Of a stretch of 64,000 nucleotides of DNA, positions 24,643 to 42,985 are shown one piece after another; positions within the stretch are counted from its first letter, which is position 1, and each line of letters begins with the position of its first letter. The DNA comes from an uncultured Gammaproteobacteria bacterium. GTDB lineage: Bacteria; Patescibacteriota; Microgenomatia; CAYXHB01; CAZYTL01. Location of the stretch: positions 4,018-68,017 of the forward strand of contig CAZYTL010000001.1 in assembly GCA_964650355.1 (NCBI GenBank). The letters run 5' to 3'. Position numbers and translations under genes: made by a program. The notes beneath the pieces are model-generated. The model ran no database searches, was not told the origin of the DNA, and worked only from the letters and a program-made list of their open reading frames with translations.

Positions 24643-24688
24643 AAGGGACCAAGAATCAAGAAACCAAAAGAACCAATAATTTAAGAGA

Positions 24689-27065: not shown

Positions 27066-29162
27066 CTAAAAAGTGTCGTAATTGGCGACCACTTCTCTGA
27101 TAACGTCTGCTAATTTATCGGACATTTCCCTCACTCCTATATTTGCCACACTATTTGGATAATATCTGCCTACGTGATCTGTGCCGGGACCAATGCCTAA
27201 CCCTATCAATTTCTGATCTGTATTTTGCATTATTTGATCAACTGTTTTACCTAGCTCGAATTCCGGTCCGGAATGAGCGCTTGATTCTTCAGGAAGACCA
27301 TCAGAAAGAACAAACAGGAATTTTTCTGCTGATTTTTGACGGGCCAAACGTTCCGATGCTTGTTGAACAGCCCAACCGTCATCATTGTAAGCTGCAGCAG
27401 AGCTGTCTACCTCCTGGAGCATACCTCCCATATGTTCCCTAACTTCACGACCCATATCGTGTCCGAAAGGTTGATATTCATATAACCTATCATTAAAACC
27501 CAAAACCTCCGTGTTGATTGAAAGCCTATTAAGAACTTCTGCTAAGACAATTGCAGCTCTAAAAGTTTCCCTTATTTTTTGACCTCTCATTGAACCGGAT
27601 AAATCAACCAACAGACTAATTGCATAATCTTTCTCCTGAGGAATTTCCCGTTTCTGCCAGGCTCTACTTTCAACAGGTGAAATACCTAATGCTTTTTCCT
27701 GCATTCTTCGTTTAATGTCGATACGTTTTCCTGACTTAAAACCTGTCTGCCACTTCTGAGCTCGTCTGGCTACAAAAATTTCTCTCAAATCCGCTTCTAG
27801 AGTGTCAATAAGCGGGAGAACATCCCTTCGGTATTCTTCATAGATATTTTCATCTCCGCGCAAAGCTTTTTCAATTAAATCCTTAAATCGCTTCTGATCC
27901 GGAGTTTGCTCTGGTTTCGTTTTCCCTTCCTGTTCATCGTCTGAGGCTGAATCCCTATCTCGTTTTGTTCCTTCTACGGCTTCTCCACGCTGAGCCTGCT
28001 TTTCCGGATTGTCTGAAAGTTTGCCTTCGAATTCTTCATTAACTTCTCGCTCAAACCCCTGTAATGCTTGCTGTGCTTTCTCTGCCAGCTCACGTTTGAC
28101 ATCTTCAGGCAAAGAGTCAATATAGTCTTTTATTTTTTGTTTTAATCCCTCAGACAAAGAGTCAAGATCAATAGCTCTGGGTTGCCCGCTACCTTCCTGC
28201 TCAGCTTGGTTGCCTTGCTGAGCATTTTCAATAGCTTCTTCAAGCTCTTTTTGTTCTTCTTCTGTTAGTGAATCTGCCAACTCCTGAGGGAGTCCTTGTT
28301 GTCCTTCTCCTTCGCCACCTCCCTGCATATCCTCCATAAATTCCTGCATTTCCTGATCTTGCATATCCTGTTCAACCAACTTCTGAAATTCCGGCCATAC
28401 CTCATCCCGATTAATTTCATAGCTGACATTAGCGTACCTTCTGATTAAGTCTTCACTTTCATCTGCTTCGTGTTTTGAAGGGTATCGTAGCCAGGAATCT
28501 CTGGCACTTTCTAGCGTTTGACTAACCACCGCTTTTACTTCTTCCGGCAAATCTTCACTCAGTGCCCCAAATTCTTTTCCCTGAGTTTCTCCATACCACT
28601 GGCGTATATACTCAAAACCTGCTTGCATGAATCGAGGAGTATACCCCAGCTGGTCGTGAGCTTTTTCTTTAGCCTTGCCTTCAAAATCCAGATCTTCCTG
28701 ATATGCAATATCCATCTGATCACGAAAGCGGGGGTAAGCTTCTGCCACAAAATTATTTGTTCGAGGATCTTCAATGGCATTCATCATAAAAGAGAACCCT
28801 GGTTGTCTCCAGGTTTCTGTGGGAATGTCCTCAGTTCGAGATACACGCCTGTGACCGCCCTCATGAGAAATAACAAAACGTAAGTAGTCCATATCCTTCT
28901 GAAGCAGGTCTTGGGGGTCGATGCGGATTTTATTTTGTCCAAAATCCCAATGCCAGCCGGCACCTGGTTGGTTAAGCTCGACAGGTATCTGAAAATCTTT
29001 ACCTATAAAATAGGCCAATGAAGAAAGAATTTGTTGCCTATGCTGAATTTCCTGCTGTTGGTCAGGAGAAAAATGTCCGAGTATCTCGGTTTGATTATCT
29101 TTACGTAGAGCGTGTAGGGTTGTCTGTGATTCTCGTTCCATAAAATCAGTTTTTTGTTCCAT
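27066..29162 (-). CDS. vWA-domain protein with N-terminal HExxH zincin-like motif (partner of the MoxR-like ATPase)
   Basis: C-terminal MIDAS DLSGSM (DxSxS) plus FVLSDG and a downstream Thr/Asp pattern of vWA domains. N-terminal FVISHEGGHRR is an HExxH motif. Long acidic coiled-coil linker. Confidence 0.7.
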   Translation of the reverse strand: MEQKTDFMERESQTTLHALRKDNQTEILGHFSPDQQQEIQHRQQILSSLAYFIGKDFQIPVELNQPGAGWHWDFGQNKIRIDPQDLLQKDMDYLRFVISHEGGHRRVSRTEDIPTETWRQPGFSFMMNAIEDPRTNNFVAEAYPRFRDQMDIAYQEDLDFEGKAKEKAHDQLGYTPRFMQAGFEYIRQWYGETQGKEFGALSEDLPEEVKAVVSQTLESARDSWLRYPSKHEADESEDLIRRYANVSYEINRDEVWPEFQKLVEQDMQDQEMQEFMEDMQGGGEGEGQQGLPQELADSLTEEEQKELEEAIENAQQGNQAEQEGSGQPRAIDLDSLSEGLKQKIKDYIDSLPEDVKRELAEKAQQALQGFEREVNEEFEGKLSDNPEKQAQRGEAVEGTKRDRDSASDDEQEGKTKPEQTPDQKRFKDLIEKALRGDENIYEEYRRDVLPLIDTLEADLREIFVARRAQKWQTGFKSGKRIDIKRRMQEKALGISPVESRAWQKREIPQEKDYAISLLVDLSGSMRGQKIRETFRAAIVLAEVLNRLSINTEVLGFNDRLYEYQPFGHDMGREVREHMGGMLQEVDSSAAAYNDDGWAVQQASERLARQKSAEKFLFVLSDGLPEESSAHSGPEFELGKTVDQIMQNTDQKLIGLGIGPGTDHVGRYYPNSVANIGVREMSDKLADVIREVVANYDTF

Positions 29163-29200: not shown

Positions 29201-30763
29201 TTACAGAAACTGAGAGGTATCAGCATACATATTCATAATTGGTTTTTTGCTTGCCTTGTGCTTTTTCTCCTCCTCAACATTTACAAAATTAATCAAATAA
29301 ATAATTGCTGCCTTGGTGAGGCACATAAGATTAATTGTCTCTTGGAAGAGAGTATCAGAATCAATGTTGTGCTTATCTGTTTCATCATCAACGCTTGTTA
29401 TTAATGAATCGAAGACTATTAGTCGTCTGTGGGTAAGTGCATTTCTGATTTGTTTTATCTTTTGATATCTATTGAGTTTGAAATCCCGGTATATGTCATA
29501 TAAAGCATAAAGGCTTAAATTATCAGAATTGAGTATTTCTTTCCTGATAACTTCTTTATGTTCCCAGACTGAGGCTGTGGAAAAGTAGATATTATTTTCC
29601 TTAAGCCTCAGATCGTAATAGTCGTTAATAAATACAGCAATTTTGTCCAATATATTGAAAGCATCCTTAAATGCCGATTTTAATAGACCTACATAAAGAT
29701 TGAATTGTGAGTAGTCCAGGGCGTATACATAGCTGGTTCTCTTGCTAATACTGTCGAAAGTCTTTTGTTTGTATTGAGATTGAACCAGATTGAGCCTGGC
29801 TACTGCGTAATCTTCTTTAATTTGATTGAGTTGTTTGGCGAAATTATAGAATGTGTCGTTGTCGTCAATTTTTGTGATCAGCCTGATAAATACTGGGTCC
29901 TCAATTGCGGCTTCACAAAAATCATCATGGATATGGAAATTGAGAAATAGCTTTTCCCTGCTGCAGAAATCTAAGTAATACTGTTCGAATTTAGTCAACC
30001 CTTTTGTTTTATATTTGGGATGCTTGATACTTTTCTTAAGTAATGATTTATCTTGAAAAAGAGATTCGATGTAATCAAGTTCGCGCTCGAAAGCTTTTTT
30101 AGCATCAGTACCTCCAACTTGTACCAGCTTCGGATCGTCTAAAACTGATTTGATATCTTGGTAAGCGGTTACATATATTGAAGCCCGATATTTGTCAGAG
30201 ATATCAGCAAATGCCCGAAGTGCTTTGGCTCTGTTTGCTACTGCCATTGGGAAGTTTTTGTTCAAGTCGAGCGCTTCGTTGTAGGCAGTTATGGCTTCAA
30301 TCCCTCGACCTAATGTGTCTAAACAGTTGCCTAGATTAACTAACACTTGTGTCTTTAGGTTTGGGTCATCAAATTCATTATTTGTCGCTTGAATTAAATG
30401 TTGTTTGGCTTGTAATAGATTTGTACTTTGCGGTATTGTGCGATCTACAGCGCCACCCATTCTTTCTGTAAGCTGATATAAACTTGTATACCCATTTGCC
30501 AGACAATAGTGAAGGTAAGCCTTCGTCTTGCCATTCTTTGTTTGTATTAGTGTGGATTCACCAAAATCAATACCTTCTCTTATGATATTTTCGTCCCTGA
30601 GATCGTTTCCTATATCAACTAAAAAGCCAGGTTTATAAAATATCAGTCTCTTGTCATCAGGGTTTTCCTTTTCGAATTCAGTTAATTTTTCAAGTGCCTT
30701 TTTTGCTTCTCCTGAATTGATAAGTAGTGAGATTGTTTGGAATGAGAGAGTCTTTTTATCCAT
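29201..30763 (-). CDS. TPR-repeat protein with C-terminal HEPN-like (Rx4H) domain, Abi/defence-like
   Basis: The N-terminal half reads as TPR-like helical repeats (AITAYNEALDLNKNFPMAVANRAKAL...). The C-terminal region contains IRNALTHRR (R-x4-H HEPN catalytic motif). Confidence 0.5.
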   Translation of the reverse strand: MDKKTLSFQTISLLINSGEAKKALEKLTEFEKENPDDKRLIFYKPGFLVDIGNDLRDENIIREGIDFGESTLIQTKNGKTKAYLHYCLANGYTSLYQLTERMGGAVDRTIPQSTNLLQAKQHLIQATNNEFDDPNLKTQVLVNLGNCLDTLGRGIEAITAYNEALDLNKNFPMAVANRAKALRAFADISDKYRASIYVTAYQDIKSVLDDPKLVQVGGTDAKKAFERELDYIESLFQDKSLLKKSIKHPKYKTKGLTKFEQYYLDFCSREKLFLNFHIHDDFCEAAIEDPVFIRLITKIDDNDTFYNFAKQLNQIKEDYAVARLNLVQSQYKQKTFDSISKRTSYVYALDYSQFNLYVGLLKSAFKDAFNILDKIAVFINDYYDLRLKENNIYFSTASVWEHKEVIRKEILNSDNLSLYALYDIYRDFKLNRYQKIKQIRNALTHRRLIVFDSLITSVDDETDKHNIDSDTLFQETINLMCLTKAAIIYLINFVNVEEEKKHKASKKPIMNMYADTSQFL

Positions 30764-31059: not shown

Positions 31060-32967
31060 CTAGTTAGTAAGCATCTTTCCTAGTCCAGGAATTTTTCCGA
31101 TTAGTTGTCGAATTTTGTTCTTATTCGCTACTAGTGGCTCATTGGTCGTTTCTTTCTGTAAAGTGCCGTTAGAAGGCGACACAGGGGCTACAACTTCTGC
31201 CTCTGTTGATGTTTCATCTGATTTTTCCTGTTTTTCCGTTATTTCCGGACCAAGTAGAATATCGACATACTGGTCAAGGTCTAACTCTTCCAAAATCATC
31301 TTTTGCAAAGCTCGCTTACGAATCAGCCACTGCTTTATACCAATTGGGTCACTTGGGTCCGGCTTGTCCTGGGCAATGAATTTGTCATATAGCAACAATA
31401 TCTGGTTGAGTCTTGCTTGTTTGTCAGGCGGAATTACTGGCTCAACTTCGACAATTGCATCTACGCTAACTTTTTTATCTTCAGATTTAAATTCCTTAAA
31501 ATCAACATTATTTCCTACTATCCTGTAGAGCTTATCCTCGCTGAGGAACTCTCTATTTAACTGGATGAGGATATTAGCCACAGTAGTTAAAGCGTTTGAA
31601 ATATTTTGAGCATTTATGCTTAACCGTAGGTTGCTTTGACCAAGGAGCATTGCAACTTTCCCTAGTGGTTCGCTGGACGACTTTGGTAGCCCCTGCAAAT
31701 ATTCACCTAGCGCCAGAGTCCTCGATATCTCATCTCGCAGCATCTTATCTTCGTTGAGCCCCATCAAACTTATTTCTGGAGGTCGCTCAATAACCACATC
31801 ATCCATTTTTCTGAGCTCCCAAACAGCTCCAGGAGAGAAAATAATGTCATTCTTGGTGATGCCGGTATCTTTACGGATCTTAACTACTGGATCTAGCATC
31901 AGAATTACATCATCCATGCGTTGGTTACGCAGGTCAGCAATCTCCATAATGGTACTTTCAACAGGCTCAACATGACCGGTTGCCCAGAATTCCCAGAGAA
32001 GAGACATATCTGGCAAATCAACAAAGATGTGTCCATTGTTGATATCCAAGTATGGGTTCTCGTCATCCCTAATTACCACTTCACCATTGGCAATAACTAC
32101 CAGTTCATCTTCCTCATAGTCCCAACATTCCCATAACTCCAGTTGCTTCTCTTGATCACTTTTTACAGGCAGGACTTTTTGTTCACCGGTGTCGGCTTTC
32201 TTAAGATCGCCATCAATCTGAGACATTTTTTTGGTGTTTATTTCATATCGTTCTTTTTTCCAATCCTCAACATTCTTGGGGTTACAAAATTCAAGATTCT
32301 TGTATATATGGTTTTCTCCACGGTTTTCTTCTTCTTTTGTAATTTTTTCCTTAGTTTTAACTATCCTGTGGATTAGCCAAGGGCACCCATCCTGCAGATC
32401 CTCTGTTTCTGGTGCCGGCAGGAAGTCCCACAAGTCGCATAGAATCATGGTTGGATCGTCATATAAGACTTTGAATGTTTCATCCGATTTTTTCCTGCTT
32501 TGAACTTTCCAGGCTAATTTAACAATTCCGTTTCCATACAATACTGATGACTCAATCCAGTGGGGAAGCTTTTTGGCTAGTTCAATAATGTCAAAGTCAT
32601 AGTTGACCAAGTCATCCCAAGAAGATAATGCTCTTGACTCTACATCTCTCTTGTCTCTGGGAATGACTCGTGTTTTGCGTTTAGCAGTCGCTAGTCTAGA
32701 TACAACCGTCTTGACGATTTCAAATGCTATTGGGGGCATGAGGCGAGTGTTGTAGGCGTAGTTTTGTTTGTGCTGATAAGCCCGGTAGAGCTTATACATC
32801 CTCAGCCACTTAGCTTGGTATGGATCACGAAACTCTTTTGCCCGCTTAAATCGAGCTTTCCATTTTTTGAGGAGTTTTTCATCACGTTCCGTAGGTTCGT
32901 ATCTTTTTCCTGGTGAAATTTTTGTTTCTTTGACTTTAGGGTTTGGCATAGTAATTTTGGCCAACAA
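31060..32967 (-). CDS. portal (head-tail connector) protein
   Basis: 635 aa, upstream of the head module. The N-terminal RAKEFRDPYQAKWLRMYKLYRAYQ region is interpreted as portal-like, and the C-terminus is acidic. The assignment rests on size and position and is not backed by a motif. Confidence 0.45.
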   Translation of the reverse strand: MLAKITMPNPKVKETKISPGKRYEPTERDEKLLKKWKARFKRAKEFRDPYQAKWLRMYKLYRAYQHKQNYAYNTRLMPPIAFEIVKTVVSRLATAKRKTRVIPRDKRDVESRALSSWDDLVNYDFDIIELAKKLPHWIESSVLYGNGIVKLAWKVQSRKKSDETFKVLYDDPTMILCDLWDFLPAPETEDLQDGCPWLIHRIVKTKEKITKEEENRGENHIYKNLEFCNPKNVEDWKKERYEINTKKMSQIDGDLKKADTGEQKVLPVKSDQEKQLELWECWDYEEDELVVIANGEVVIRDDENPYLDINNGHIFVDLPDMSLLWEFWATGHVEPVESTIMEIADLRNQRMDDVILMLDPVVKIRKDTGITKNDIIFSPGAVWELRKMDDVVIERPPEISLMGLNEDKMLRDEISRTLALGEYLQGLPKSSSEPLGKVAMLLGQSNLRLSINAQNISNALTTVANILIQLNREFLSEDKLYRIVGNNVDFKEFKSEDKKVSVDAIVEVEPVIPPDKQARLNQILLLYDKFIAQDKPDPSDPIGIKQWLIRKRALQKMILEELDLDQYVDILLGPEITEKQEKSDETSTEAEVVAPVSPSNGTLQKETTNEPLVANKNKIRQLIGKIPGLGKMLTN

Positions 32968-33173: not shown

Positions 33174-33386
33174 TTGTTAAGTAAATTTATCAACAGTAAT
33201 ACTATGGAAGAACTTCTAACGATAGGCGAAGCCGCTCAGATTTTGAAGGTTCATCCCAACACTTTACGTTTGTGGGATAAAAACGGCATCTTGAAAGCTG
33301 TGAGAATTGGTGTGAAAAAAACTCGCAGATACAGAAAAGAGGATATCGAGAAGTTTATTAAAGAAGGTAAAAATAATAAGGAATAA
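33174..33386 (+). CDS. excisionase/MerR-like HTH DNA-binding protein
   Basis: LTIGEAAQILKVHPNTLRLWDKNGILKAVRIG is the MerR/excisionase-family HTH. The likely start is the ATG at 33204 (MEELLTIGEA...). It is a paralogue of ORF 48019..48213. Confidence 0.6.
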   Translation: MLSKFINSNTMEELLTIGEAAQILKVHPNTLRLWDKNGILKAVRIGVKKTRRYRKEDIEKFIKEGKNNKE

Positions 33387-33391
33387 AAACT

Positions 33392-35614
33392 ATGACTCAA
33401 GCTCAAAAACAGCAACTAGAAAAACAACTTTGGGCAGTTGCCAATGTTCTTCGAGGCAAGATGAATGCTGACGAATACAAGAACTATATCTTGGGGTTTA
33501 TTTTTTACAAATATCTTTCAGAAAAACTTGCTCGATACATAGATGAGAAACTATTATCCAACGAGAAGTTTGATTTTTCCGAAATTGATGAATCTAGCAA
33601 AGATGGTCAAAAAATCATTGATGCTGTCAAGAAAGCCTGTATTGATCACTTAGGATTTTTCCTTAAACCTAAGGACCTTTTCTCTTATCTCGTAAAGAAA
33701 GGTAATGGAGAAATTAAGAGTCAAAGCACCTTTATCCTAGAAAACCTTAAAGACGTTCTTAACTCCATTGAACAAACTTCTATGGGAACAGCTAGTGAAG
33801 ATGATTTCAAAGGACTTTTTGACGACGTGGACTTAACTTCATCCAAATTAGGTAAATCGGAAAACAAGAAAAATCAAGTAATTGTGGAAGTATTGACACT
33901 ACTTGGCGCTATTGATTTTAAGCTAGAAGATTCTAAAAGTGATTTACTTGGTGATGCTTATGAATACTTGATCGGAGAATTCGCAGCCGGAGCGGGTAAA
34001 AAAGGTGGAGAGTTCTACACTCCAGCCCAAGTTTCTAGATTGCTTTCTAAGATAGTGATTCGCGGCAAGAAAAAAATTAAATCTGTTTACGATCCTACTT
34101 GTGGATCAGGCTCTCTTCTACTTCGCATAGGCGAGTATGTAGATGTAAAGGCTTATTATGGGCAAGAACTAAACCCTACAACCTACAACTTAGCTCGAAT
34201 GAACATGATCTTGCATGGAGTCCACTTTGATGATTTCAGTATTCGCCAAGGAGATACATTAACCGACGACATGCACTTAGATTTAAAGGCAGAAGCAGTT
34301 GTTGCTAATCCTCCCTTCTCAGCTGACTGGAAGGGTGATAAAGACCCAGCTTTGGTGCACGATGAGAGATATTCTCAATACGGAAGATTGGCTCCAAAAA
34401 GCAAAGCAGATTATGCTTTTGTTACGCACATGCTACATCATTTATCTGATAACGGAATAATGGCTGTGGTTTTACCTCATGGTGCGCTATTCAGGAGTGG
34501 AGCTGAAGAACAGATTCGTAAATATATAATCGAAAAACAGAATTACCTTGATGCGGTAATAGGTTTGCCACCAAATATTTTTTATGGAACAAAGAAACCT
34601 TTTGCAATATTAGTATTTAAAAAATGTAGAAGCGAAGATCAAGACATATTTTTTATTGATGGTTCAAACGAGTATGTTGTTGGAGAAAAAAAGAACCTGA
34701 TGACAGATCAAAACATTAATAAAATATTTAACATATATGAAAATCGCCAAGAAATCGATGAATTTTCTTATAGAGCAAAATTATCTGAGGTAAAGAAAAA
34801 TAATTTTGACCTTTATATTTCTCGATATGTAAAAATAATTGAAAAAGAACAAGAAATCTCAATCGCTGAGGTTGCAAAAAAACTGTATAGACTTCAAGAG
34901 CTAGAACAACCCCATCAAGAAAGAGTTAAAAAATATTGCGATAAATTAGGATGTCCGCCTCCAATTGGATCTAATACTCAACTTCTTACCGATTATAAGC
35001 GTGGTTTAATTCAGAAGCTTTTTTCAAGAGAAATTAGGTTTAGAGATAAAAAACAGAAAGATTTTCCAGATTGGACAATCTATAAACTCGAGAATGTTTT
35101 ACACGAACATGGAAAAAAAAGTACCGGAAAAGAAAAAGTGTACTCTGTTTCTGTGCATAAAGGTTTGGTTGACCAGATTGAACATCTTGGAAGAAGTTAT
35201 GCAGCTAAATCAACAAGCCACTACAATTTAGTAAAACCAGGAGATGTTGTATACACAAAAAGTCCAACTGGTGATTTCCCTCTAGGAATTATAAAACAAA
35301 GCAAAATTAGTAAGACAGTCATAGTCTCTCCGCTTTACGGAGTATTTACCCCCAAAACATTTGATTTGGGATTTATTCTAGATGCCTATTTTGAATCAAC
35401 TGCCAATACGAACAACTACCTATCACCCATTGTTCATAAAGGTGCAAAAAACACCATTGCAATTACTAACAGCACTTTTTTGTCTGGCGAACTATCACTG
35501 CCTGTTTCTGAAGAAGAAATACAAATAGTTGCAGACTTTATAAGGTCTATTGACCAGATAATTCTCTTAAAGAGCGGATCTTTTTCGCAAAATGTCAAAA
35601 GTCACGAAGTTTAA
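33392..35614 (+). CDS. hsdM: Type I restriction-modification HsdM methyltransferase fused to a single-TRD HsdS specificity module
   Basis: HsdM motifs: SAM-binding VYDPTCGSGSLLL and catalytic VVANPPFS (NPPF). The C-terminal ~250 aa has HsdS features: conserved boundary DFPDWTIYKLENV, one target-recognition domain, and the terminal LPVSEEEIQIVADFIRSIDQII repeat. Confidence 0.75.
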   Translation: MTQAQKQQLEKQLWAVANVLRGKMNADEYKNYILGFIFYKYLSEKLARYIDEKLLSNEKFDFSEIDESSKDGQKIIDAVKKACIDHLGFFLKPKDLFSYLVKKGNGEIKSQSTFILENLKDVLNSIEQTSMGTASEDDFKGLFDDVDLTSSKLGKSENKKNQVIVEVLTLLGAIDFKLEDSKSDLLGDAYEYLIGEFAAGAGKKGGEFYTPAQVSRLLSKIVIRGKKKIKSVYDPTCGSGSLLLRIGEYVDVKAYYGQELNPTTYNLARMNMILHGVHFDDFSIRQGDTLTDDMHLDLKAEAVVANPPFSADWKGDKDPALVHDERYSQYGRLAPKSKADYAFVTHMLHHLSDNGIMAVVLPHGALFRSGAEEQIRKYIIEKQNYLDAVIGLPPNIFYGTKKPFAILVFKKCRSEDQDIFFIDGSNEYVVGEKKNLMTDQNINKIFNIYENRQEIDEFSYRAKLSEVKKNNFDLYISRYVKIIEKEQEISIAEVAKKLYRLQELEQPHQERVKKYCDKLGCPPPIGSNTQLLTDYKRGLIQKLFSREIRFRDKKQKDFPDWTIYKLENVLHEHGKKSTGKEKVYSVSVHKGLVDQIEHLGRSYAAKSTSHYNLVKPGDVVYTKSPTGDFPLGIIKQSKISKTVIVSPLYGVFTPKTFDLGFILDAYFESTANTNNYLSPIVHKGAKNTIAITNSTFLSGELSLPVSEEEIQIVADFIRSIDQIILLKSGSFSQNVKSHEV

Positions 35615-35620
35615 ATACAT

Positions 35621-38416
35621 ATGGCACAATCAGAACTACAACTAGAAAACGAATTAATATCTCAACTTAATACATTAGGTTTTGATATTGTTTCTATTCC
35701 CAACGTTGATTCGCTTCATCAGAATTTACAATCTCAACTTGAAAAATTCAATCAAACTAAATTCTCTGATCTTGAATTCTCTCGAATTTTAAACTACTTA
35801 ACTAAGAGTGATCGTTTTCAAAAAGCAAAAACTTTGCGAGATAGATTTGCCCTAAAGCGCGATGATGAAAGCACTTTGTGGGTACGCTTTTTCAACATGG
35901 ATAAGTGGTGTAAGAACGAATATCAAGTTACACATCAGGTTACCCAAGCCGGAAGATATGAGAATCGTTACGACGTAACTTTGCTTATTAACGGTTTGCC
36001 ATTGGTTCAGATTGAACTCAAACGTCGTGGTGTTGAAATGAAAGAAGCGTTTAATCAAATTCAACGCTATCATCGTCATTCTTTCACAGGGACCCTGTTT
36101 GAATATATTCAAGTATTTGTAATTTCTAATGGCGTTAACACTAAATACTTTTCGAATAATCCTAGACAATCATTTGAACAAACATTTTTTTGGACAGATG
36201 TAAACAATAAAAAAATAACTCAACTTAATGAGTTTGCTGATGTGTTTTTAGAAAAATGCTCTTTGTCAGCAATGATCGCTGAATATATTGTTCTTCATGA
36301 ATCACTTAAGATTCCAATGATCTTACGTCCCTATCAGTATTTTGCAGTTAAAGCTATTGAACAACGAGTAAAAGAATCAGATAAAAATGGTTACATTTGG
36401 CACACCACTGGATCTGGAAAAACTTTAACCTCATATAAGGCGAGCCAGATTCTCTCTCAGCTACCGGAAATTAAGAAGGTTTTATTCGTTGTTGATCGAA
36501 AAGATTTAGACATTCAGACCACCAAAGAATTTAATTACTTCTCTGATGGCTCAGTAGATGGTACCGATAACACACGAAATTTAGTTGCTCAACTTAAAGA
36601 TCCAAATCGAAAACTCATAGTTACTACCATTCAAAAACTAGATAGGGCTGTTTCGAGAGAATCATATATTCATCAATTTGAAGCTCTCCAAAATGAAAAA
36701 CTGGTCATTATTTTTGATGAATGTCACCGAAGTCAATTTGGATTAACACATTCAAGAATTAAAGGTGCTTTAAAAAATGCTCAGTTGTTTGGTTTCACTG
36801 GTACGCCAATCTTTGCAGACAACAATGTCGGTGGTGTAACTACCAAAGATGTGTTTGGCGAGTGTCTGCACAAGTACATTATCACTCATGCCATTGATGA
36901 TAATAATGTGCTCGGTTTTGCAGTTGAGTATGTTGGTAAATATAAGAAAAAAGATCAAGATACTTTGGACGCAGATATTTTTGCTGAAACTTTAGTAGAA
37001 GGTATTAATACCAAAGAAGTTCTTGAAAGCGATGAGCGTCTAGAAAAAATTACTGAGTACATTCTTCAAGATTGGAAACGAAAAACTAAAAAAGGTAAAT
37101 TCAACGCAATTTTTGCCACAAGCAATATTAGTGTTTTGAAAAGATACTACAAGTTGTTTGCTGACCAAAAACCTGACGATTTCAAAGTAGCGACAATATT
37201 TACTTATCAAGCCAATGAAGATGATAGCTCCGACATGCTTGACGTTGATATTTTTGCTGGTGAAGGTACTACCGGTAACCAACATTCTAGAGATTTCTTA
37301 GAGTCATGCATAAAAGATTACAACACTCTCTATGGAACAAATTATTCAACTGACCGCTTCTACGACTATTATCGAGATTTACAAAAACGAATTAAAGAAA
37401 AGCAAGTTGATTTAGTTATTGTGGTGAACATGTTCCTAACAGGTTTTGATAGTCCGAGACTCAATACCTTGTTCGTAGATAAAAACCTAAGATATCACGG
37501 TCTAATCCAAGCGTACTCACGTACTAACCGTCTACTTAATTCAGACAAACCACATGGGAATATTGTTTCCTTTAGGAATCTAAAACTAGCCACTGATAAA
37601 GCATTAGCATTGTTTGGTGATGAGAACGCTAAAGAAGTTGTTTTCAAAAAACCGTATGAGATTCAGAAAAAAGAATTTGAACAAAAATTATCAGAAGTAA
37701 AGAAAAAGGTTCCTACTGTAGATTCAGTTGATGATTTGCAGGGAGAAGAAGAAAAGGCTTCATTTGTTAAAAGCTTTAGAGATCTTTTGAGAATTAAATC
37801 CTCTCTAGAAACTTTTGCTGAATTTTCATTTGATGACTTAGGTATATCTGAGCAAGAATTTTATGATTACCAAAGCAAATATCTCGACATTCATGAAGAG
37901 CGCAAAAAACACGATCCTGAAAAGGAATCTATATTAGATCAAATCGACTTTGAGCTTGAACTTACAGTAAGAGATGTTGTTGATTTTGACTATATTATTC
38001 AACTTATTGCTGGGTTGAAAGACATTAGCTCAGATGCTGTTAGAGAAAAGAAGACTGAAGAAATCTTGAAGCTATTTGACCGTGATGTAAAACTTCGCAA
38101 GAAGAAAGAGCTAATCAAGAAATTTATTGAAGAAAATCTTCCCAAGGTTGGTAAAGATGGAAACGTCGAAGAAGCCTTTGAGAAATTCTGGTCAAGTGAA
38201 AGATCTACTGCTTTAAAAGATGTGGCTCAGACTGAAAATATTCCTCTAGAAAAATTTGAACAAGTTATTGGTGAGTACTTGTATACCCAAAAACTTCCAC
38301 ATAGTCAGGACATTATTGATCTACTCCCAGAAGCTCCCAAGATCTTAGAGCGTCAAGGAATCATCGATAGGATTAAAAATGCAATTGAAAATATAGTGGA
38401 TATTTTTGAATGGTAA
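35621..38416 (+). CDS. hsdR: Type I restriction enzyme HsdR (endonuclease/helicase subunit)
   Basis: N-terminal PD-(D/E)xK (DVTLLINGLPLVQIELK), helicase motif I HTTGSGKT, and motif II IIFDECHRS (DECH box). Confidence 0.8.
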   Translation: MAQSELQLENELISQLNTLGFDIVSIPNVDSLHQNLQSQLEKFNQTKFSDLEFSRILNYLTKSDRFQKAKTLRDRFALKRDDESTLWVRFFNMDKWCKNEYQVTHQVTQAGRYENRYDVTLLINGLPLVQIELKRRGVEMKEAFNQIQRYHRHSFTGTLFEYIQVFVISNGVNTKYFSNNPRQSFEQTFFWTDVNNKKITQLNEFADVFLEKCSLSAMIAEYIVLHESLKIPMILRPYQYFAVKAIEQRVKESDKNGYIWHTTGSGKTLTSYKASQILSQLPEIKKVLFVVDRKDLDIQTTKEFNYFSDGSVDGTDNTRNLVAQLKDPNRKLIVTTIQKLDRAVSRESYIHQFEALQNEKLVIIFDECHRSQFGLTHSRIKGALKNAQLFGFTGTPIFADNNVGGVTTKDVFGECLHKYIITHAIDDNNVLGFAVEYVGKYKKKDQDTLDADIFAETLVEGINTKEVLESDERLEKITEYILQDWKRKTKKGKFNAIFATSNISVLKRYYKLFADQKPDDFKVATIFTYQANEDDSSDMLDVDIFAGEGTTGNQHSRDFLESCIKDYNTLYGTNYSTDRFYDYYRDLQKRIKEKQVDLVIVVNMFLTGFDSPRLNTLFVDKNLRYHGLIQAYSRTNRLLNSDKPHGNIVSFRNLKLATDKALALFGDENAKEVVFKKPYEIQKKEFEQKLSEVKKKVPTVDSVDDLQGEEEKASFVKSFRDLLRIKSSLETFAEFSFDDLGISEQEFYDYQSKYLDIHEERKKHDPEKESILDQIDFELELTVRDVVDFDYIIQLIAGLKDISSDAVREKKTEEILKLFDRDVKLRKKKELIKKFIEENLPKVGKDGNVEEAFEKFWSSERSTALKDVAQTENIPLEKFEQVIGEYLYTQKLPHSQDIIDLLPEAPKILERQGIIDRIKNAIENIVDIFEW

Positions 38417-39602
38417 GAAAAATTTTATGAAAATTATAGACGATAAATCATTAGAAGAACTTAAAAATATAGTTCAAGATTGTAATGTAAACTTTTTACT
38501 TGGTTCAGGCATGTCCATGCCCTATCTTTCTACTCTTGGGAAAATTGAACAATTTTTAACAGAACTTGCACAAAAAAAAGAAAAAGGAGAAGTAACAAAC
38601 GAACAAGAAAAGATTATTAGAGTATCTTTGTATAAAAAATTTTTTGATGGCGCAATAGTAAAGAATTTAGATGTTCTAAAAGAAAGTGTTGATGCTAAGA
38701 AGGTATTGGATAACTACGAGAATTTTTTAGTAATTCTTAATTCTATTTTACTTAATAGAAAAAGCAGCATCCTAAATAAACAATTAAATATCTTTACAAC
38801 AAATGTAGATATTTTTTTAGAAAAATCACTGGAAAATACAAACGTAGAATATAACGATGGGTTTAGTGGAAGATTTTCTCCGAAATTTAATTTAACCAAT
38901 TTTAAAAAGTCGTTTTATAAAACTAGTCTTCATTATGACAATGTTTCAGAGCTACCAGTGTTTAATTTAATGAAAATTCACGGCTCACTGACTTGGGATA
39001 AAAGAGAGAAAGAAGATATTTTGTTCTCATCCAAACTAAATATTGTCGATAAAATTAAATCTAAAACAATAACTGGAAATACACTTATTGATATTGATGA
39101 TGAAGAAACAATAGATGAACTTATTACCAAAGCCAATACTAAGACCCCAGATTCGTCAGTAGATGAATTTATAGTTGAATACGAAAAGCTTGCGATTGTA
39201 AATCCGACAAAAGAAAAATTCAGAGAAACTGTTTTAAACAGAAATTATTATGAATTACTCAGGATTTATTCAAATGAACTTGAAAAAGAAAACACAATTC
39301 TTATTGTTGCTGGATTTTCATTCGCTGATGAACATATTCGAGATGTAACAATAAGAGCCGCCAATTCAAATCCAACTTTAAAAATCTATATACTTTCCCA
39401 TTCAAGTGATGCCGACGAAGGATCATTAATAGTCAAAGATAAGTCGATAAACGGCAATGTTGAGATTGTTGTACCACCGCAAAAGCAAGATGATCCTGAA
39501 CAAGAACCAGTAGATGAGTTCAAATATAACTTAAAAAACATAAATGAAAAAATCTTTACAGAATTACTTAAAAAGATTGGTGAGAGAAAAGAAGATAAAT
39601 AA
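38406..39602 (+). CDS. SIR2-family (NAD-dependent deacetylase-fold) defence protein
   Basis: FLLGSGMS (GxGxS Rossmann loop of SIR2), TTNVD (TTNYD-like) and KIHGS (HG catalytic His). The start overlaps the hsdR stop. An alternative start is at 38427. Confidence 0.7.
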   Translation: MNGKKNFMKIIDDKSLEELKNIVQDCNVNFLLGSGMSMPYLSTLGKIEQFLTELAQKKEKGEVTNEQEKIIRVSLYKKFFDGAIVKNLDVLKESVDAKKVLDNYENFLVILNSILLNRKSSILNKQLNIFTTNVDIFLEKSLENTNVEYNDGFSGRFSPKFNLTNFKKSFYKTSLHYDNVSELPVFNLMKIHGSLTWDKREKEDILFSSKLNIVDKIKSKTITGNTLIDIDDEETIDELITKANTKTPDSSVDEFIVEYEKLAIVNPTKEKFRETVLNRNYYELLRIYSNELEKENTILIVAGFSFADEHIRDVTIRAANSNPTLKIYILSHSSDADEGSLIVKDKSINGNVEIVVPPQKQDDPEQEPVDEFKYNLKNINEKIFTELLKKIGERKEDK

Positions 39603-39611
39603 TCCTAAAAC

Positions 39612-41471
39612 ATGAATAGCAAGCAAATACTCAAAGATTCTATATTCAAAGTTGGTAAGGTCATATCAGTTGATGGGCGAATTGTTAGAATAAAGGTTGA
39701 TAAAACAAAGAACTCTTCGAACTTACTATATAATGGCAAGTTGCTTAAAAATATTTCTGTAGGTGGGTATGTAAAAATAATCAAAGGTTTCACAAAGATA
39801 ATTGGCAAGGTCGATGGAGAATATATTAATGAAGAAAAAACCTTTTCAAATAAGGAATATGCAAGCGGAAAAGAAAAAATCAGCCGCGTGCTTAATGTTA
39901 GTTTGTTAGGTTTTTTTGGGGATAAAGGTTTTGAGAGAGGCATAAAAGAATTGCCTTTAATAGACAATGAGTGTTTTTTGCTTGAAAATGAAGAGTTTGG
40001 TTCAGTTCACCATTTTGTTAAAAAAGATGATGAGCCAATAACCGTAGGAAGTCTTTCTTTAGAAAAAGGTCAAGAAATCAAAGTTGGAGTTAATAGTTTG
40101 TTTGCGAGCCATATAGGAATTTTTGGGAATACTGGTAGCGGAAAATCATATACGTTAGCAAAAATTTATAGGGAATTATTTAAAAAGTATGAAGGGAGAG
40201 AAAATTTTCGGAACAATGGTATGTTTCTCTTGTTTGATTTTAATGGAGAATATGCAGATGAGAAGTGCATAATCGAAGGAAAAAAAATTTACAACCTAAC
40301 CACCAAAAAGACACTTAATACAATTAATAATGACGATAAATTTCCATTAAATGAGAATGACTTAATTGATTTGGAGCTTATTTCTATTCTTGCTAACGCA
40401 ACAGAAAAAACTCAGAGACCATTCTTATCCAGATCGTTAGACTTTTATAAAAAAATAAATGATGCCGATGACTCTCTTGAGTTTTTCAAAAATGTTTTAA
40501 AAAAACGGACAAAAGAAGTTCTAAGGATGGCAGATAAAGATAAAGCGCACGTTCTTATCGATTATTTAATTAATATTTTAGAAAAACCAGAAGAAAACTT
40601 AAACGAAGATCTTTTCGCCGCTATCGAATGGAACAATACAAATCATCACTTCATGCCTAGAAATGGCCAAAGCAGAGAATTAACGGATAGCGAAATTGAA
40701 GGAACAATTTTATATACATCCGCTAATAGCTATCAATTTCCCCAAAATATACTTACAAAAGTCATTCATTTTCTATACTTACAAGTAATTTTTGATATTT
40801 ACAACGACAAGGCTCAAAACGAACATATTGCCCCGGCCATTAATAAATTGAAGAGTAAACAAAAAGATATAGAGAAAGTTTTGAATACTAGCAGTACAAC
40901 CAACGACTTCTTTGTAGATAGCAATTTTGTGGTATTGAATCTTAAAGACGTTAATATCGAAATGAGAAAGACATTGCCTCTACTACTATCCAAAAAGGCT
41001 TATTCAGAACATAAACACAAACATAGACGAGATGAGAAGAAGTATTTAAATATTATTATTGATGAGGCTCACAATATATTATCCAAAGAATCTTTTAGAG
41101 AGGCTGAGAGCTGGAAAGATTATCGACTGGAAACATTTGAAGAGATAATTAAAGAGGGGCGTAAGTTTGGGGTCTTTCTAACAATAGCGAGTCAGCGACC
41201 CCATGATATATCCGCGACTATTATTTCCCAGCTGCACAATTATTTCCTACATAGATTGATAAATAATCACGACATTGTGGCTGTAGAAAGAACTATTGCT
41301 TATCTTGATAAATTGTCTGTTGAGTATTTATCTATTTTACCTACTGGTACATGTGTATTAGCAGGTTTGCTTGCACAGGTTCCTGTAGTTATTGATATTG
41401 GCAAAATAGAACCCAAAGAGCACGAACCTAACAATAAAACTATCAACTTAATAGAAAGTTGGAGTGACTGA
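39612..41471 (+). CDS. herA: HerA-like hexameric ATPase/helicase
   Basis: Walker A GIFGNTGSGKSYT, Walker B LNIIIDEAHN, FLTIASQRP, and an N-terminal HAS-barrel-like region. It sits immediately after the SIR2 gene. Confidence 0.75.
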   Translation: MNSKQILKDSIFKVGKVISVDGRIVRIKVDKTKNSSNLLYNGKLLKNISVGGYVKIIKGFTKIIGKVDGEYINEEKTFSNKEYASGKEKISRVLNVSLLGFFGDKGFERGIKELPLIDNECFLLENEEFGSVHHFVKKDDEPITVGSLSLEKGQEIKVGVNSLFASHIGIFGNTGSGKSYTLAKIYRELFKKYEGRENFRNNGMFLLFDFNGEYADEKCIIEGKKIYNLTTKKTLNTINNDDKFPLNENDLIDLELISILANATEKTQRPFLSRSLDFYKKINDADDSLEFFKNVLKKRTKEVLRMADKDKAHVLIDYLINILEKPEENLNEDLFAAIEWNNTNHHFMPRNGQSRELTDSEIEGTILYTSANSYQFPQNILTKVIHFLYLQVIFDIYNDKAQNEHIAPAINKLKSKQKDIEKVLNTSSTTNDFFVDSNFVVLNLKDVNIEMRKTLPLLLSKKAYSEHKHKHRRDEKKYLNIIIDEAHNILSKESFREAESWKDYRLETFEEIIKEGRKFGVFLTIASQRPHDISATIISQLHNYFLHRLINNHDIVAVERTIAYLDKLSVEYLSILPTGTCVLAGLLAQVPVVIDIGKIEPKEHEPNNKTINLIESWSD

Positions 41472-42985
41472 TGAATATGACATTATCTAAATCCGACTAC
41501 ATGCTTTTTCTTCGTCACCCAGCTTGGCTGTGGTTGAAGAAGTTCAACAAAAATAAACTTCCCCCGATTGATGAGGATACGCAGGCTTTATTTGACGCTG
41601 GTCATGAATTTGAAAGTTACACAGAAAAGCTGTTTCCTGATGCCATCCGTTTAGGTTTTAACAATTTCGATGAGTATCTTTCACTACCCAATAAAACCCT
41701 TCAAGAGATTAATAGTGGCACTCAAACTATTTTTCAAGGTCGATTAGAGATAGATGGTTTAACTTGTATTTTTGACGTTTTGCAAAAAGTTGGGGAGAAG
41801 GAATTTGACTTAATTGAAATAAAAGCCACTACCAGAGCTAAGCCAGAACACGAATACGATCTAGCATTTCAACTGTTAGTTTTGGAGAGGTCTGGTTACT
41901 CGGTTAGAAATATTTCTGTTGTTCATGCCAATAAAGAGTATGAGAGAAATGGGGATATAGATCCAAAACTTCTTTGTGACCAAACTAATATCACTGAAAA
42001 AGTAAAAGCTCTGAGAGAAGTAACTGAGCAACAGGTATCTGCAGCTCAGACGATGCTGGGCGAAAAAACAATTCCTGACATTTCTCCTCGGTACGTGAAC
42101 AAAGTTAACATTCCTGGCGTTTCTCAATGGTTCCAAGAATGGCTGGATATCTACAAGATACTGAAACCAAATAATGATCCCTACAATATTTACGAGCTTA
42201 GTTACCCTAGTGCTGAACAAATAGCTAGTTTAGAGGACGAGGGCATAACAAGGATAGCTGATGTGCCTGATGAGTTAGTTTTAAGACCAAAACAATTTGC
42301 TCAAGTAAAAACCACCAGAGAAGATAGGCCAATTTTAGATAAAGAAAAGATCAGAGAATTTTTAGATTCTTTTCAGTACCCACTTTACTTTTTTGATTAT
42401 GAAACGATGTCCTCAGTAGTCCCCGTGTTTGATCGCATGAGCCCTTATAAAGACTATCCATTTCAGTACTCCTTGCACGTTCTTCGATCCCCAGATGCTG
42501 AAGTCGAGCATCATGAATATCTGCATTCGGAGAATTCAAATCCGATGCCAAGACTTCTTAGTCAGCTCACACAAGATATTGGCAATGAAGGCACTGTTCT
42601 CACTTGGAATATGAGTTATGAAAAAGGATGCAATGACCGCATGGTCGCACTATACCCAGAATATTCAGAGTTTTTGGCAGAACTTAACGAGAGAATAAAT
42701 GATCTAATGATTCCATTCTCTGAGATGTGGTATTTCCATAAGGATTTCTTTGGTAGTGCATCAGTTAAAAAAGTAATGCCTGTATTGGCTCCTGAGTTAA
42801 GTTACAAGGAGCTCAATGTTGGCAATGGACTCCTTGCTAGGAGAATGTGGACCCAAACTATTTTAGAAGACAAACACCAAGATCAACGAGATAAAATTAT
42901 GGAGGATTTGAGCAAATATTGCACTCTAGATACATTTGCTATGGTTCGAATTTTGGAGGTATTGAGGGAAATTATTAATGAATAA
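41471..42985 (+). CDS. predicted two-domain nuclease (PD-(D/E)xK-like N-terminus + DEDD/RNase H-like C-terminus; DUF2779-like)
   Basis: N-terminal IFDVL...DLIEIKAT (D...ExK). C-terminal YFFDYETMS (Exo I FDxET) and YCTLD (Exo III YxxxD). Its ATG overlaps the HerA stop (tgaTGAatATGa), which implies translational coupling. Confidence 0.5.
   Translation: MNMTLSKSDYMLFLRHPAWLWLKKFNKNKLPPIDEDTQALFDAGHEFESYTEKLFPDAIRLGFNNFDEYLSLPNKTLQEINSGTQTIFQGRLEIDGLTCIFDVLQKVGEKEFDLIEIKATTRAKPEHEYDLAFQLLVLERSGYSVRNISVVHANKEYERNGDIDPKLLCDQTNITEKVKALREVTEQQVSAAQTMLGEKTIPDISPRYVNKVNIPGVSQWFQEWLDIYKILKPNNDPYNIYELSYPSAEQIASLEDEGITRIADVPDELVLRPKQFAQVKTTREDRPILDKEKIREFLDSFQYPLYFFDYETMSSVVPVFDRMSPYKDYPFQYSLHVLRSPDAEVEHHEYLHSENSNPMPRLLSQLTQDIGNEGTVLTWNMSYEKGCNDRMVALYPEYSEFLAELNERINDLMIPFSEMWYFHKDFFGSASVKKVMPVLAPELSYKELNVGNGLLARRMWTQTILEDKHQDQRDKIMEDLSKYCTLDTFAMVRILEVLREIINE

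What the first reader, a model, noticed from the sequence alone, without database searches (positions are those of the whole stretch)
33392..38416. Type I RM with HsdM fused to a single-TRD HsdS
The 740-aa product has a complete HsdM (NPPF motif, SAM loop). It is followed in-frame by one target-recognition domain flanked by HsdS conserved regions, and no separate hsdS gene is present. A half-S fused to M would recognise a symmetric bipartite site as a dimer. This is an uncommon organisation.
Basis: partly seen in the sequence, partly recalled or inferred. Interest (0 to 1): 0.5.

Follow-up and report, generated by a model that had tools for sequence, protein, structure and literature searches.

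The report
Two-gene Type I restriction system, M–half-S fusion

Summary
ORF 33392-35614 (740 aa) is a complete HsdM with motifs DPTCGSG and NPPF. It continues in frame into one HsdS target-recognition domain (TRD) flanked by two half-length conserved-region helices. A complete EcoR124I-like HsdR follows 6 nt later. No other hsdS-like sequence exists in any frame of the 64-kb window.

The tail is a genuine HsdS half:
- PADLOC Specificity_I gives E 5e-33 and maps it onto the second half of a two-TRD profile.
- Its TRD is 60-68% identical to TRDs of ordinary HsdS proteins.
- An AlphaFold model (pLDDT 92.5) finds only HsdS structures in the PDB.

The fusion is not an assembly artefact. The identical protein is recorded in two sources. 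About 25 of the 119 closest HsdM relatives, which include named Patescibacteria, are fusions with varied TRDs. None of eight other fused loci has a separate hsdS.

It is not new. A natural M1S1/2 fusion from Vibrio vulnificus has a solved structure (PDB 7EEW). An engineered M-½S fusion methylates ACCN5GGT and restricts with HsdR. The name "Type IMS" was proposed in 2012.

Verdict: a new member of a known kind, of modest interest. The recognition sequence remains unknown.

The parts
33174..33386 (+). Small HTH_17/MerR-type DNA-binding gene directly upstream of hsdMS. It is 70 aa from a TTG start; gene callers use the ATG at 33204, giving 60 aa. It is a candidate transcriptional controller of the operon, and its membership of the system is tentative.
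   Evidence: Pfam HTH_17 E 6e-13 and MerR_1 E 1e-9. PADLOC mad1 E 3.4e-14. PHROG excisionase/regulator phrog_66 E 3e-11. The same small gene sits immediately upstream of the fusion in L004, L005 and L086.
33392..35614 (+). hsdMS, a 740-aa fusion of HsdM and half an HsdS (a 'Type IMS' or M1S1/2 protein).
   Evidence: The identical protein is on record from NCBI and from Logan, and an independent 23-kb Logan contig carrying it was read.
33416..33898 (+). HsdM N-terminal domain, residues 9-169.
   Evidence: Pfam PF12161 HsdM_N, E 1.6e-22.
33935..34849 (+). Gamma-class N6-adenine methyltransferase catalytic domain, residues 182-486. SAM-binding motif DPTCGSG is at residue 234 and catalytic NPPF at residue 306.
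   Evidence: Pfam PF02384, E 8e-102. Motifs located. EcoR124II HsdM 7bst_D E 5e-109 and 3lkd_A E 1e-115.
34862..34948 (+). HsdM C-terminal tail helix, residues 491-519. Unfused relatives end about six residues after this helix.
   Evidence: Secondary structure of the AlphaFold models. Alignment A1 shows unfused P0006 and P0034 ending with ...EELNIEKPF and ...EELGIDNPF at the junction.
34949..34975 (+). Pro-rich fusion linker, residues 520-528 (LGCPPPIGS).
   Evidence: Non-helical in both models. A P-x-P-x-G-N-N junction motif recurs in the fusions.
34976..35077 (+). Pre-TRD conserved region, residues 529-562. It corresponds to the second half of an HsdS conserved-region helix plus the IRF...FP.W lead-in to the TRD.
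   Evidence: 46% identity over 41 aa (E 2e-9) to residues 193-233 of the HsdS of unfused relative L003. Mean pairwise identity among 26 fusions is 44%, against 20% in the TRD.
35078..35500 (+). The single target-recognition domain, residues about 563-703.
   Evidence: 60-68% identity to TRDs of ordinary HsdS proteins. 66-69% identity to plasmid HsdS of Neotabrizicola, Roseicitreum and Enterobacter. The tail model, which spans this domain and its flanking helices, has the HsdS fold: 1yf2, 7vs4_C, 3okg, 2y7c_A, 5ybb_D, 1ydx and 7bst_A at probability 1.00.
35501..35599 (+). Post-TRD conserved region, residues 704-736. It corresponds to the first half of an HsdS conserved-region helix (P..EE.....F....D..I motif) and stops short of the usual KKGLMQ end.
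   Evidence: [quoted passage not shown] Helix 707-728 appears in both models. P704 and E708 are nearly invariant in A1. Mean pairwise identity among fusions is 46%.
35621..38416 (+). hsdR, 931 aa. Complete EcoR124I-type restriction and translocase subunit.
   Evidence: TIGR00348 hsdR at 491 bits. Pfam HSDR_N, SWI2_SNF2/ResIII, T1R_D3-like and EcoR124_C. EcoR124I HsdR 2w00_A E 7e-164. Nuclease motif D118...E132-x-K134, Walker A GSGKT at 264 and DECH at 366 are intact.

Best explanation
This is a functional two-gene Type I restriction-modification system of the EcoR124I (IC-like) lineage, with the specificity function carried by the methyltransferase polypeptide.

Each 740-aa HsdMS chain supplies one methyltransferase and one TRD. 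Two chains are inferred to pair through their conserved-region helices. The post-TRD half helix of one chain would line up with the pre-TRD half helix of the other, rebuilding the two antiparallel helices of a normal HsdS. The two HsdM tail helices would pack alongside. The resulting (M-S½)2 core has the same make-up as a classical M2S1 methyltransferase, but with two identical TRDs in inverted orientation.

Such a core should bind and N6-adenine-methylate a palindromic bipartite site: a half-site, a spacer of roughly 5-8 nt, then the reverse complement of the half-site. On unmethylated sites it would recruit two HsdR subunits, which translocate DNA using ATP and cut at a distance.

Shown here: the domain composition, intact catalytic motifs, the absence of any other hsdS, and conservation of the architecture with varied TRDs.

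Inferred: dimerisation, the palindromic target, and restriction activity.
For: Architecture and intact motifs.

The tail equals half an HsdS, namely the second half of one conserved-region helix, a TRD, then the first half of a conserved-region helix.

The helix lengths add up. The models give a pre-TRD helix at 529-544 and a post-TRD helix at 707-728, 38 residues in all. The single central helix of the related two-TRD HsdS is about 40 residues.

The conservation pattern is that of a working HsdS. Among 26 fusions the flanking helices are 44-46% identical on average and the TRD is 20% identical.

No other hsdS-like ORF is present in the window.

Nine of nine fused loci have hsdR within 0-2 genes and no separate hsdS. 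These are the window, L001, L004, L005, L087, L088, L089, L090 and L091.

An unfused close relative, 83% identical over the M part, has M(525)-S(390, two TRDs)-R(932). The fusion therefore replaces hsdS rather than adding to it.

Precedent:
- The engineered S. aureus CC398-1 M-½S fusion methylates palindromic ACCN5GGT and restricts when HsdR is supplied (PMC6158711).
- Half-HsdS derivatives of IC enzymes recognise symmetric sites, for example EcoDXXIΔC with TCA N8 TGA (PMC3874165).
- The natural V. vulnificus M1S1/2 fusion is reported to pair and recapitulate M2S1 (PMC12429846).
- Its structure, 7eew_A, is the only Type I methyltransferase chain listed in the PDB search that aligns across both the M and TRD parts of the full-length model, over 703 columns at E 1e-20.
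Against: No experiment or methylome exists for this organism, and the recognition sequence is unknown.

Dimerisation could not be modelled, because only single-chain prediction was available.

The conserved-region helix here is split into two short pieces. In the engineered fusion the half HsdS carries the whole central conserved region after its TRD, and from memory of its abstract the Vibrio protein has a single conserved-region helix. This permuted topology has no direct structural precedent.

The full-length model is only moderate (pLDDT 75.5).

Only 64 kb of the genome could be searched for a partner hsdS.
Confidence: 0.78

Rival explanations
1. HsdMS works as a monomer, like a split Type ISP or MmeI-like enzyme. 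One chain would recognise a short asymmetric half-site and methylate one strand. HsdR-driven cleavage would then need two head-to-head sites rather than one palindromic bipartite site.
For: Type ISP enzymes such as LlaGI carry one gamma-MTase and one TRD and act on continuous asymmetric 6-7 bp sites (PMC3874165; PMC6158711). The conserved-region helices here are short, at 16 and 22 residues. That might weaken a coiled coil.
Against: Both half helices keep the HsdS conserved-region motifs across fusions with unrelated TRDs, which is not expected if they no longer pair. Together they add up to one full helix. HsdR is a separate classical EcoR124I-type subunit. Both characterised M-½S fusions are reported as dimers.
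Confidence: 0.1
2. HsdMS pairs with a specificity partner encoded outside the window, either a free half-HsdS with its own HsdM or a second HsdMS. The enzyme would then be a heterodimer with an asymmetric bipartite target.
For: Only 64 kb of the genome was available. Free half-size HsdS proteins of about 200-230 aa carrying this TRD type exist elsewhere.
Against: There is no hsdS-like ORF in the window or within about 6-8 kb of eight related fused loci. The 1:1 M:TRD ratio of a homodimer already satisfies Type I stoichiometry, so no partner is needed.
Confidence: 0.07
3. The locus is a decaying or methylation-only remnant. The fusion would be a deletion product that still methylates, or does nothing, and restriction would have been lost.
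For: A related fusion in an Akkermansiaceae MAG (L006) is frameshifted inside its TRD. The engineered fusions restricted phage only weakly (PMC6158711).
Against: All three reading frames are intact with complete catalytic motifs in M and R. The architecture is conserved across many lineages with diversified TRDs and intact hsdR genes, which indicates selection for function.
Confidence: 0.04
4. The fusion is an assembly or sequencing artefact that joins hsdM to a truncated hsdS.
For: MAG assemblies do contain frameshifts; L006 is an example.
Against: The identical 740-aa protein is recorded in both NCBI and Logan, and an independent 23-kb Logan contig carrying it was read. Dozens of homologous fusions share the junction motif. 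hsdR starts 6 nt after the stop codon, leaving no missing sequence.
Confidence: 0.01

Closest known systems
Vibrio vulnificus YJ016 'minimal intact methyltransferase' M1S1/2 (PDB 7EEW; Seo et al. 2022, Int J Biol Macromol 208:381, as cited in PMC12429846)
   Same: A natural single polypeptide joining a Type I HsdM to a truncated single-TRD HsdS in a Type I operon. Two fusion proteins are reported to recapitulate the classical M2S1 assembly. 7eew_A matches the M part by sequence (E 9e-12) and the tail by fold (E 2.5e-4). It aligns with the full-length model over 703 columns.
   Different: It belongs to a different Type I family. Identity in the structural alignment is only 16%, and sequence similarity is confined to the MTase core. 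The chain is shorter, at 638 aa. From my memory of its abstract, not checked here, its S½ part is a TRD followed by one conserved-region helix. The window protein has half a helix on each side of the TRD.
Engineered M-½S fusion ('M½Sfus') of the S. aureus CC398-1 Type I system (Bower et al. 2018, PMC6158711)
   Same: HsdM is fused in frame to one TRD plus a conserved region. It dimerises, methylates a palindromic bipartite site (ACCN5GGT), and restricts when a separate HsdR is supplied.
   Different: It is man-made. It uses the N-terminal half of HsdS with the whole central conserved region after the TRD. The authors treat it as a hypothetical evolutionary intermediate, not as a natural form.
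'Type IMS' as proposed for the EcoKI M-S fusion (Roberts et al. 2012, PMC3510504)
   Same: [quoted passage not shown] That definition fits this locus exactly.
   Different: The EcoKI construct keeps both TRDs, so it needs an extra free HsdM for activity in vitro. The single-TRD form here is stoichiometrically self-sufficient.
Free half-HsdS Type IC derivatives: EcoR124I-NT, EcoDXXIΔC and EcoDXXIΔN
   Same: They belong to the same enzyme family (EcoR124I-like M and R). A single-TRD S dimerises and gives symmetric targets such as TCA N8 TGA and GAAY N5 RTTC (PMC3874165; PMC3320862).
   Different: The half-S is a separate polypeptide, and these forms arose by laboratory truncation or transposition.
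Type ISP (LlaGI, LlaBIII) and Type IIG/IIB enzymes
   Same: A gamma-class N6-adenine MTase is fused to a single C-terminal HsdS-like TRD (PMC3874165).
   Different: Those enzymes also fuse the nuclease, with or without a motor, into the same chain. They act on continuous asymmetric sites or lack ATP-driven translocation. Here HsdR is a separate classical subunit.

Membership tests
Type I restriction-modification system (EcoR124I / IC-like lineage) | HsdR with a PD-(D/E)xK nuclease, an SF2 DEAD-box motor and a C-terminal assembly domain | tested here: met
   TIGR00348 at 491 bits. HSDR_N, SWI2_SNF2, T1R_D3-like and EcoR124_C domains. EcoR124I HsdR 2w00 E 7e-164. Motifs D118/E132/K134, GSGKT and DECH present.
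Type I restriction-modification system (EcoR124I / IC-like lineage) | HsdM: gamma-class N6-adenine MTase with an HsdM_N domain and a C-terminal tail helix | tested here: met
   TIGR00497 at 458 bits, above its 243-bit cut-off. EcoR124II HsdM 7bst_D E 5e-109. NPPF and DPTCGSG present. Tail helix at 491-519.
Type I restriction-modification system (EcoR124I / IC-like lineage) | A separate HsdS subunit with two TRDs and two conserved-region helices (M2S1 core) | tested here: not met
   There is only one TRD, and it is fused to HsdM. No other hsdS is present in the window. This is the feature that makes the system a variant.
Type I restriction-modification system (EcoR124I / IC-like lineage) | ATP-dependent translocation with cleavage far from a bipartite site; subunit complementation within family IC | not testable with these tools
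   Needs biochemistry or genetics.
'Type IMS' / M1S1/2 fusion systems (Roberts 2012 definition; V. vulnificus 7EEW) | HsdM and HsdS (one or two TRDs) in one polypeptide | tested here: met
   A single 740-aa ORF with HsdM at residues 5-497 and an HsdS half at residues 530-727. The identical protein is on record from NCBI and Logan, and an independent Logan contig carrying it was read.
'Type IMS' / M1S1/2 fusion systems (Roberts 2012 definition; V. vulnificus 7EEW) | A separate HsdR subunit encoded with it | tested here: met
   hsdR at 35621-38416, 6 nt downstream.
'Type IMS' / M1S1/2 fusion systems (Roberts 2012 definition; V. vulnificus 7EEW) | Homodimerisation to an (M-S½)2 core that methylates a palindromic bipartite site | not testable with these tools
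   Only monomer structure prediction was available and there are no methylome data. It is inferred from the conserved half helices and from precedent.
Type ISP (LlaGI-like) | Nuclease, motor, MTase and TRD all in one polypeptide | tested here: not met
   The R functions are on a separate 931-aa protein.
MADS (methylation-associated defence system) | Full mad1-mad8 gene set with a MAD2 methyltransferase | tested here: not met
   The NCBIfam MADS2 match scores 53.5 bits against a 720-bit cut-off. The PADLOC mad1, mad2 and mad8 matches are domain-level only, and for the M and HerA proteins they are far weaker than the Type I and HerA models.

The most novel reading that the evidence does not exclude
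The most novel reading not excluded is that this represents a natural, repeatedly evolved class of minimal two-gene Type I systems. The class would be concentrated in Patescibacteria and in phage or prophage-associated DNA.

Its distinguishing feature would be a circularly permuted half-HsdS, with half a helix, then the TRD, then half a helix. The specificity coiled coil would then be rebuilt from four helix pieces swapped between two chains.

Fused and unfused HsdM proteins interleave in a rough tree of the M part. At least three junction topologies exist. Together these suggest frequent interconversion. That would make these loci the natural counterpart of the intermediate that Bower et al. 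(2018) postulated between Type I and Type IIG/ISP enzymes.
Probability: 0.4. Interest if true: 0.45.

Novelty: new member of a known kind. Interest (0 to 1): 0.28.

Why it matters
It shows that the M-½S fusion is a recurrent, conserved, natural solution in small-genome bacteria and in phage-associated DNA. Until now it was known from one Vibrio crystal structure and from engineered constructs.

Such two-gene systems are compact and stoichiometrically self-sufficient, and their specificity can be changed by swapping one TRD. That makes them convenient for methylome prediction, since the motif should be a palindromic bipartite m6A site, and for engineering.

Annotation pipelines label these proteins simply as 'subunit M'. 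Systems like this one may therefore be scored as lacking a specificity subunit, or as incomplete. Pfam's Methylase_S model misses this particular TRD altogether.

Tried and rejected
- Pfam on the isolated tail found no Methylase_S match even at E up to 10, and phmmer against PDB sequences found nothing relevant. This TRD type lies outside those models' reach. PADLOC, homologue searches and the fold search were needed instead.
- A third large protein search with a 121-aa junction fragment, meant to count fusions, returned essentially nothing because of the word index. It was wasted.
Apparent junction-spanning tblastn matches turned out to be ordinary HsdS central regions. It gives only a rough frequency.
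- 'hsdMS' in the literature mostly means the hsdM-hsdS operon. The P. aeruginosa PAO1 case that I recalled as a fusion has separate genes.
- I tried to predict the half-site from TRD relatives on plasmids. None has a known specificity in the tools available.
- A promoter, terminator and repeat scan upstream of the HTH gene gave nothing above chance.
- MADS membership was rejected, because only domain-level hits were found.
- A frameshifted second TRD was rejected, because there are only 6 nt between hsdMS and hsdR and no S-like ORF in any frame.
Full report
**What is there**

The + strand between 33.1 and 43 kb carries a tight gene string:
- a 70-aa HTH gene at 33174-33386;
- a 740-aa ORF at 33392-35614;
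- a 931-aa ORF at 35621-38416, starting 6 nt after the previous stop codon;
- SIR2 (38406-39602), HerA (39612-41471) and a DUF2779/Cas4-like protein (41471-42985).

The 740-aa protein has a complete HsdM. TIGR00497 covers residues 5-497 at 458 bits against a cut-off of 243. Pfam finds HsdM_N and N6_Mtase. DPTCGSG is at residue 234 and NPPF at residue 306.

The 931-aa protein is a complete HsdR. It has HSDR_N, SWI2_SNF2, T1R_D3-like and EcoR124_C domains and matches TIGR00348 at 491 bits. The nuclease motif D118/E132/K134, Walker A GSGKT and DECH are intact.

The best solved relatives are EcoR124II HsdM (7bst_D, E 5e-109) and EcoR124I HsdR (2w00, E 7e-164). The system therefore belongs to the IC-like lineage.

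**Is the tail really half an HsdS?**

Pfam's Methylase_S model does not see it. Everything else does.
- PADLOC Specificity_I (PDLC03087) matches residues 530-727 at E 4.9e-33. The match falls on profile positions 192-391 of 418, which is the second half of a two-TRD model.
- A close unfused relative (L003; its HsdM is 83% identical over the M part) is followed by a 390-aa two-TRD HsdS. Residues 530-570 of the window protein are 46% identical (E 2e-9) to the second half of that HsdS's central conserved helix. The end of the TRD plus the post-TRD helix align with the end of its TRD1 and the first half of the same helix.
- The TRD is 60-68% identical to TRDs in hundreds of ordinary HsdS proteins, with E down to 1e-91. 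Sources include Bacteroidota, Polaribacter, Aequorivita and Methanobrevibacter. It also matches HsdS genes on plasmids.
- An AlphaFold2 model of the tail (pLDDT 92.5, pTM 0.89) has a helix, an alpha/beta domain, then a helix. Eleven of its 14 best PDB matches are HsdS-type specificity-subunit chains: 1yf2, PacII S, 3okg, EcoKI S, 5ybb_D, BsaXI S, 1ydx, EcoR124I S and the V. vulnificus fusion protein 7eew_A. The other three are the HsdS-like protein Esub1.
- A profile of fusions plus HsdS proteins hits 1yf2_A at E 1e-25, over its second TRD and helix.

**No second TRD and no separate hsdS**

The gap to hsdR is 6 nt. A six-frame scan of all 548 stop-to-stop ORFs of at least 40 aa in the window, using 121 HsdS queries, hits only this ORF.

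**Not an artefact, and a family**

The identical protein is on record from both NCBI and Logan. The independent 23-kb Logan contig that was read has the same neighbours.

Among the 119 closest HsdM homologues, about 25 are 706-758-aa fusions. Many of these have a precomputed Methylase_S hit. The rest are 525-aa unfused HsdMs. Where the sources name them, they are Patescibacteria such as Daviesbacteria, Levyibacteria and Roizmanbacteria.

The alignment shows that unfused HsdMs stop exactly where the fusions continue into a P-x-P-x-G-N-N linker. Three junction types occur:
- half a helix before the TRD and a short helix after it, as in the window protein;
- no pre-TRD helix and a full-length helix after the TRD, as in P0005, P0018, P0079 and P0089;
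- both a pre-TRD helix and a long post-TRD helix, as in P0013, P0020, P0027 and P0036.

Among 26 fusions the mean pairwise identity is 78% in the MTase core, 44% in the pre-TRD segment, 20% in the TRD and 46% in the post-TRD helix. This is the classic HsdS pattern of conserved regions around a hypervariable TRD.

In a rough neighbour-joining tree of the M part, fused and unfused proteins interleave. The window's M part is closest to unfused proteins, at 83% against 78% for the best fused one. This suggests repeated fusion, fission or recombination. The tree is crude.

**Context of fused loci**

Besides the window, eight other fused loci were read: L001, L004, L005, L087, L088, L089, L090 and L091. 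In every one the fusion is followed by a 928-969-aa EcoR124-type hsdR. The two genes are adjacent or separated by one or two accessory genes (AAA_15/21, Abi_C, HATPase_c). No separate hsdS-like ORF is present.

**How common?**

The layout is uncommon overall.
- Only 1 of the 150 best 50%-identity cluster representatives matching the tail is a fusion (P0243, 708 aa). Nearly all the rest are about 400-aa two-TRD HsdS proteins that carry this TRD in either position.
- Among 80 species-representative genome loci, none is an intact fusion. One, an Akkermansiaceae MAG (L006), is a fusion with the same junction motif but a frameshift in its TRD.
- Two of 80 IMG/VR loci are fusions.

These are samples, not censuses. 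The scans were truncated, and fusions may be hidden under unfused cluster representatives.

**Mechanism**

The models place an HsdM tail helix at 491-519, a Pro-rich linker at 520-528, a pre-TRD helix at 529-544, the TRD, and a post-TRD helix at 707-728. Pre- and post-TRD helices together correspond to one full conserved-region helix of the related HsdS, broken just before its LLEKYKKG segment.

The most economical model is a homodimer. The post-TRD helix of chain A would continue into the pre-TRD helix of chain B, and the reverse on the other side. That rebuilds the antiparallel helix pair of HsdS, with the two M tail helices alongside. The (M-S½)2 core would have two identical inverted TRDs and hence a palindromic bipartite m6A target. 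Two HsdR subunits would be recruited for ATP-driven translocation and distant cleavage.

This step is inferred. It rests on precedent rather than on a test of this protein.

**What is already known**

- Roberts et al. (2012) fused EcoKI hsdM and hsdS. They proposed the name 'Type IMS' for M-S fusions with one or two TRDs plus a separate HsdR (PMC3510504).
- Bower et al. (2018) built an M-½S fusion of a S. aureus system. It methylates palindromic ACCN5GGT and restricts when HsdR is supplied. They treated it as a hypothetical evolutionary intermediate (PMC6158711).
- Half-HsdS derivatives of IC enzymes give symmetric sites (PMC3874165).
- A natural fusion has been described. The V. vulnificus YJ016 Type I operon encodes an HsdM-S1/2 protein. 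Two copies of it 'recapitulate a classical HsdM2HsdS1 assembly' (PMC12429846, citing Seo et al. 2022).
- That structure, 7EEW, is hit by the M part by sequence and by the tail by fold. It is the only Type I MTase chain listed that aligns over the whole full-length model, across 703 columns at 16% identity and E 1e-20.

**Verdict**

The organisation is real, intact, conserved and uncommon, but it is a new member of a known kind.

Two things appear not to have been described in the literature I could search. One is its recurrence in Patescibacteria and in phage-associated contigs. The other is the permuted 'half helix, TRD, half helix' topology. These are modest additions.

The recognition sequence and the oligomeric state remain untested.

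Noticed in passing
window 22659-26632 (- strand): A diversity-generating retroelement. The reverse transcriptase is at 22659-23696 (phrog_1423, E 2e-117). A 122-nt template repeat lies at about 24108-24229. An 85%-identical variable repeat lies at about 24702-24823, at the 3' end of the 647-aa ORF 24689-26632. Read on the minus strand, every mismatch inside the repeat is at an adenine of the template copy, which is the DGR signature.
   Followed up: partly
window 1-33000 (- strand): A phage-like block. It includes a portal/adaptor gene (31060-32967), a major head protein (18812-19978), tail-fibre proteins (11218-12549 and 16676-17692), an endolysin/amidase (14721-16385) and a 1800-aa protein (4522-9924). 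It also includes a HEPN_LA2681+TPR protein (29201-30763) and a VWA/CobT_C protein (27066-29162). The RM operon starts about 200 nt from the portal gene, in divergent orientation. The same adjacency is seen in an independent assembly (L086). Two fused systems also lie on IMG/VR contigs.
   Followed up: partly
window 38406-41471 (+): A SIR2-HerA defence pair directly after hsdR. SIR2 matches PADLOC PDLC04080 at E 3e-66 and HerA matches PDLC04097 at E 1e-182. The SIR2 ORF overlaps the hsdR stop codon by 11 nt. G+C falls to 0.30-0.35 across 34-42 kb, against 0.40-0.42 in most of the flanking sequence, which suggests an acquired defence island.
   Followed up: partly
window 41471-42985 (+); also L001, L003, L005: A DUF2779 protein with weak Cas4/RecB-like nuclease similarity closes the island. 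It recurs downstream of the hsdR genes of related fused and unfused loci. It may be a conserved accessory partner of this Type I lineage.
   Followed up: no
window 33174-33386 (+); L004 7793-7963; L005 7811-7990; L086 813-995: A small HTH_17/MerR-like gene is conserved immediately upstream of the M-S fusion. It hits PADLOC mad1 (E 3e-14). It might act like the RptR repressor recently described upstream of Type I systems (PMC12255303) or like a C protein. No convincing operator repeat was found.
   Followed up: partly
A1 alignment; P0005, P0018, P0079, P0089 versus P0013, P0020, P0027, P0036 versus the window protein: There are three different junction topologies among natural M-½S fusions. Fused and unfused HsdM proteins interleave in a rough tree, which suggests several independent fusion events.
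   Followed up: partly
L139, L142, L146, L148, L150, L151, L153-L156, L158, L160, L161, L163-L167, L169 (IMG/VR contigs): Another class of HsdM homologues of 800-930 aa. These have a 330-440-aa C-terminal extension that does not match the HsdS queries. Most are followed by 1000-1160-aa HsdR proteins. The extension was not analysed.
   Followed up: no
L006 4592-6836 (Akkermansiaceae MAG JAYTOE010000066.1): An M-½S fusion with the same junction motif (LGLPFPAGHN...LLEAYKKGVMQKLF), found outside Patescibacteria. It is interrupted by a frameshift inside its TRD and another near the N-terminus. It could be a pseudogene or an assembly error.
   Followed up: partly
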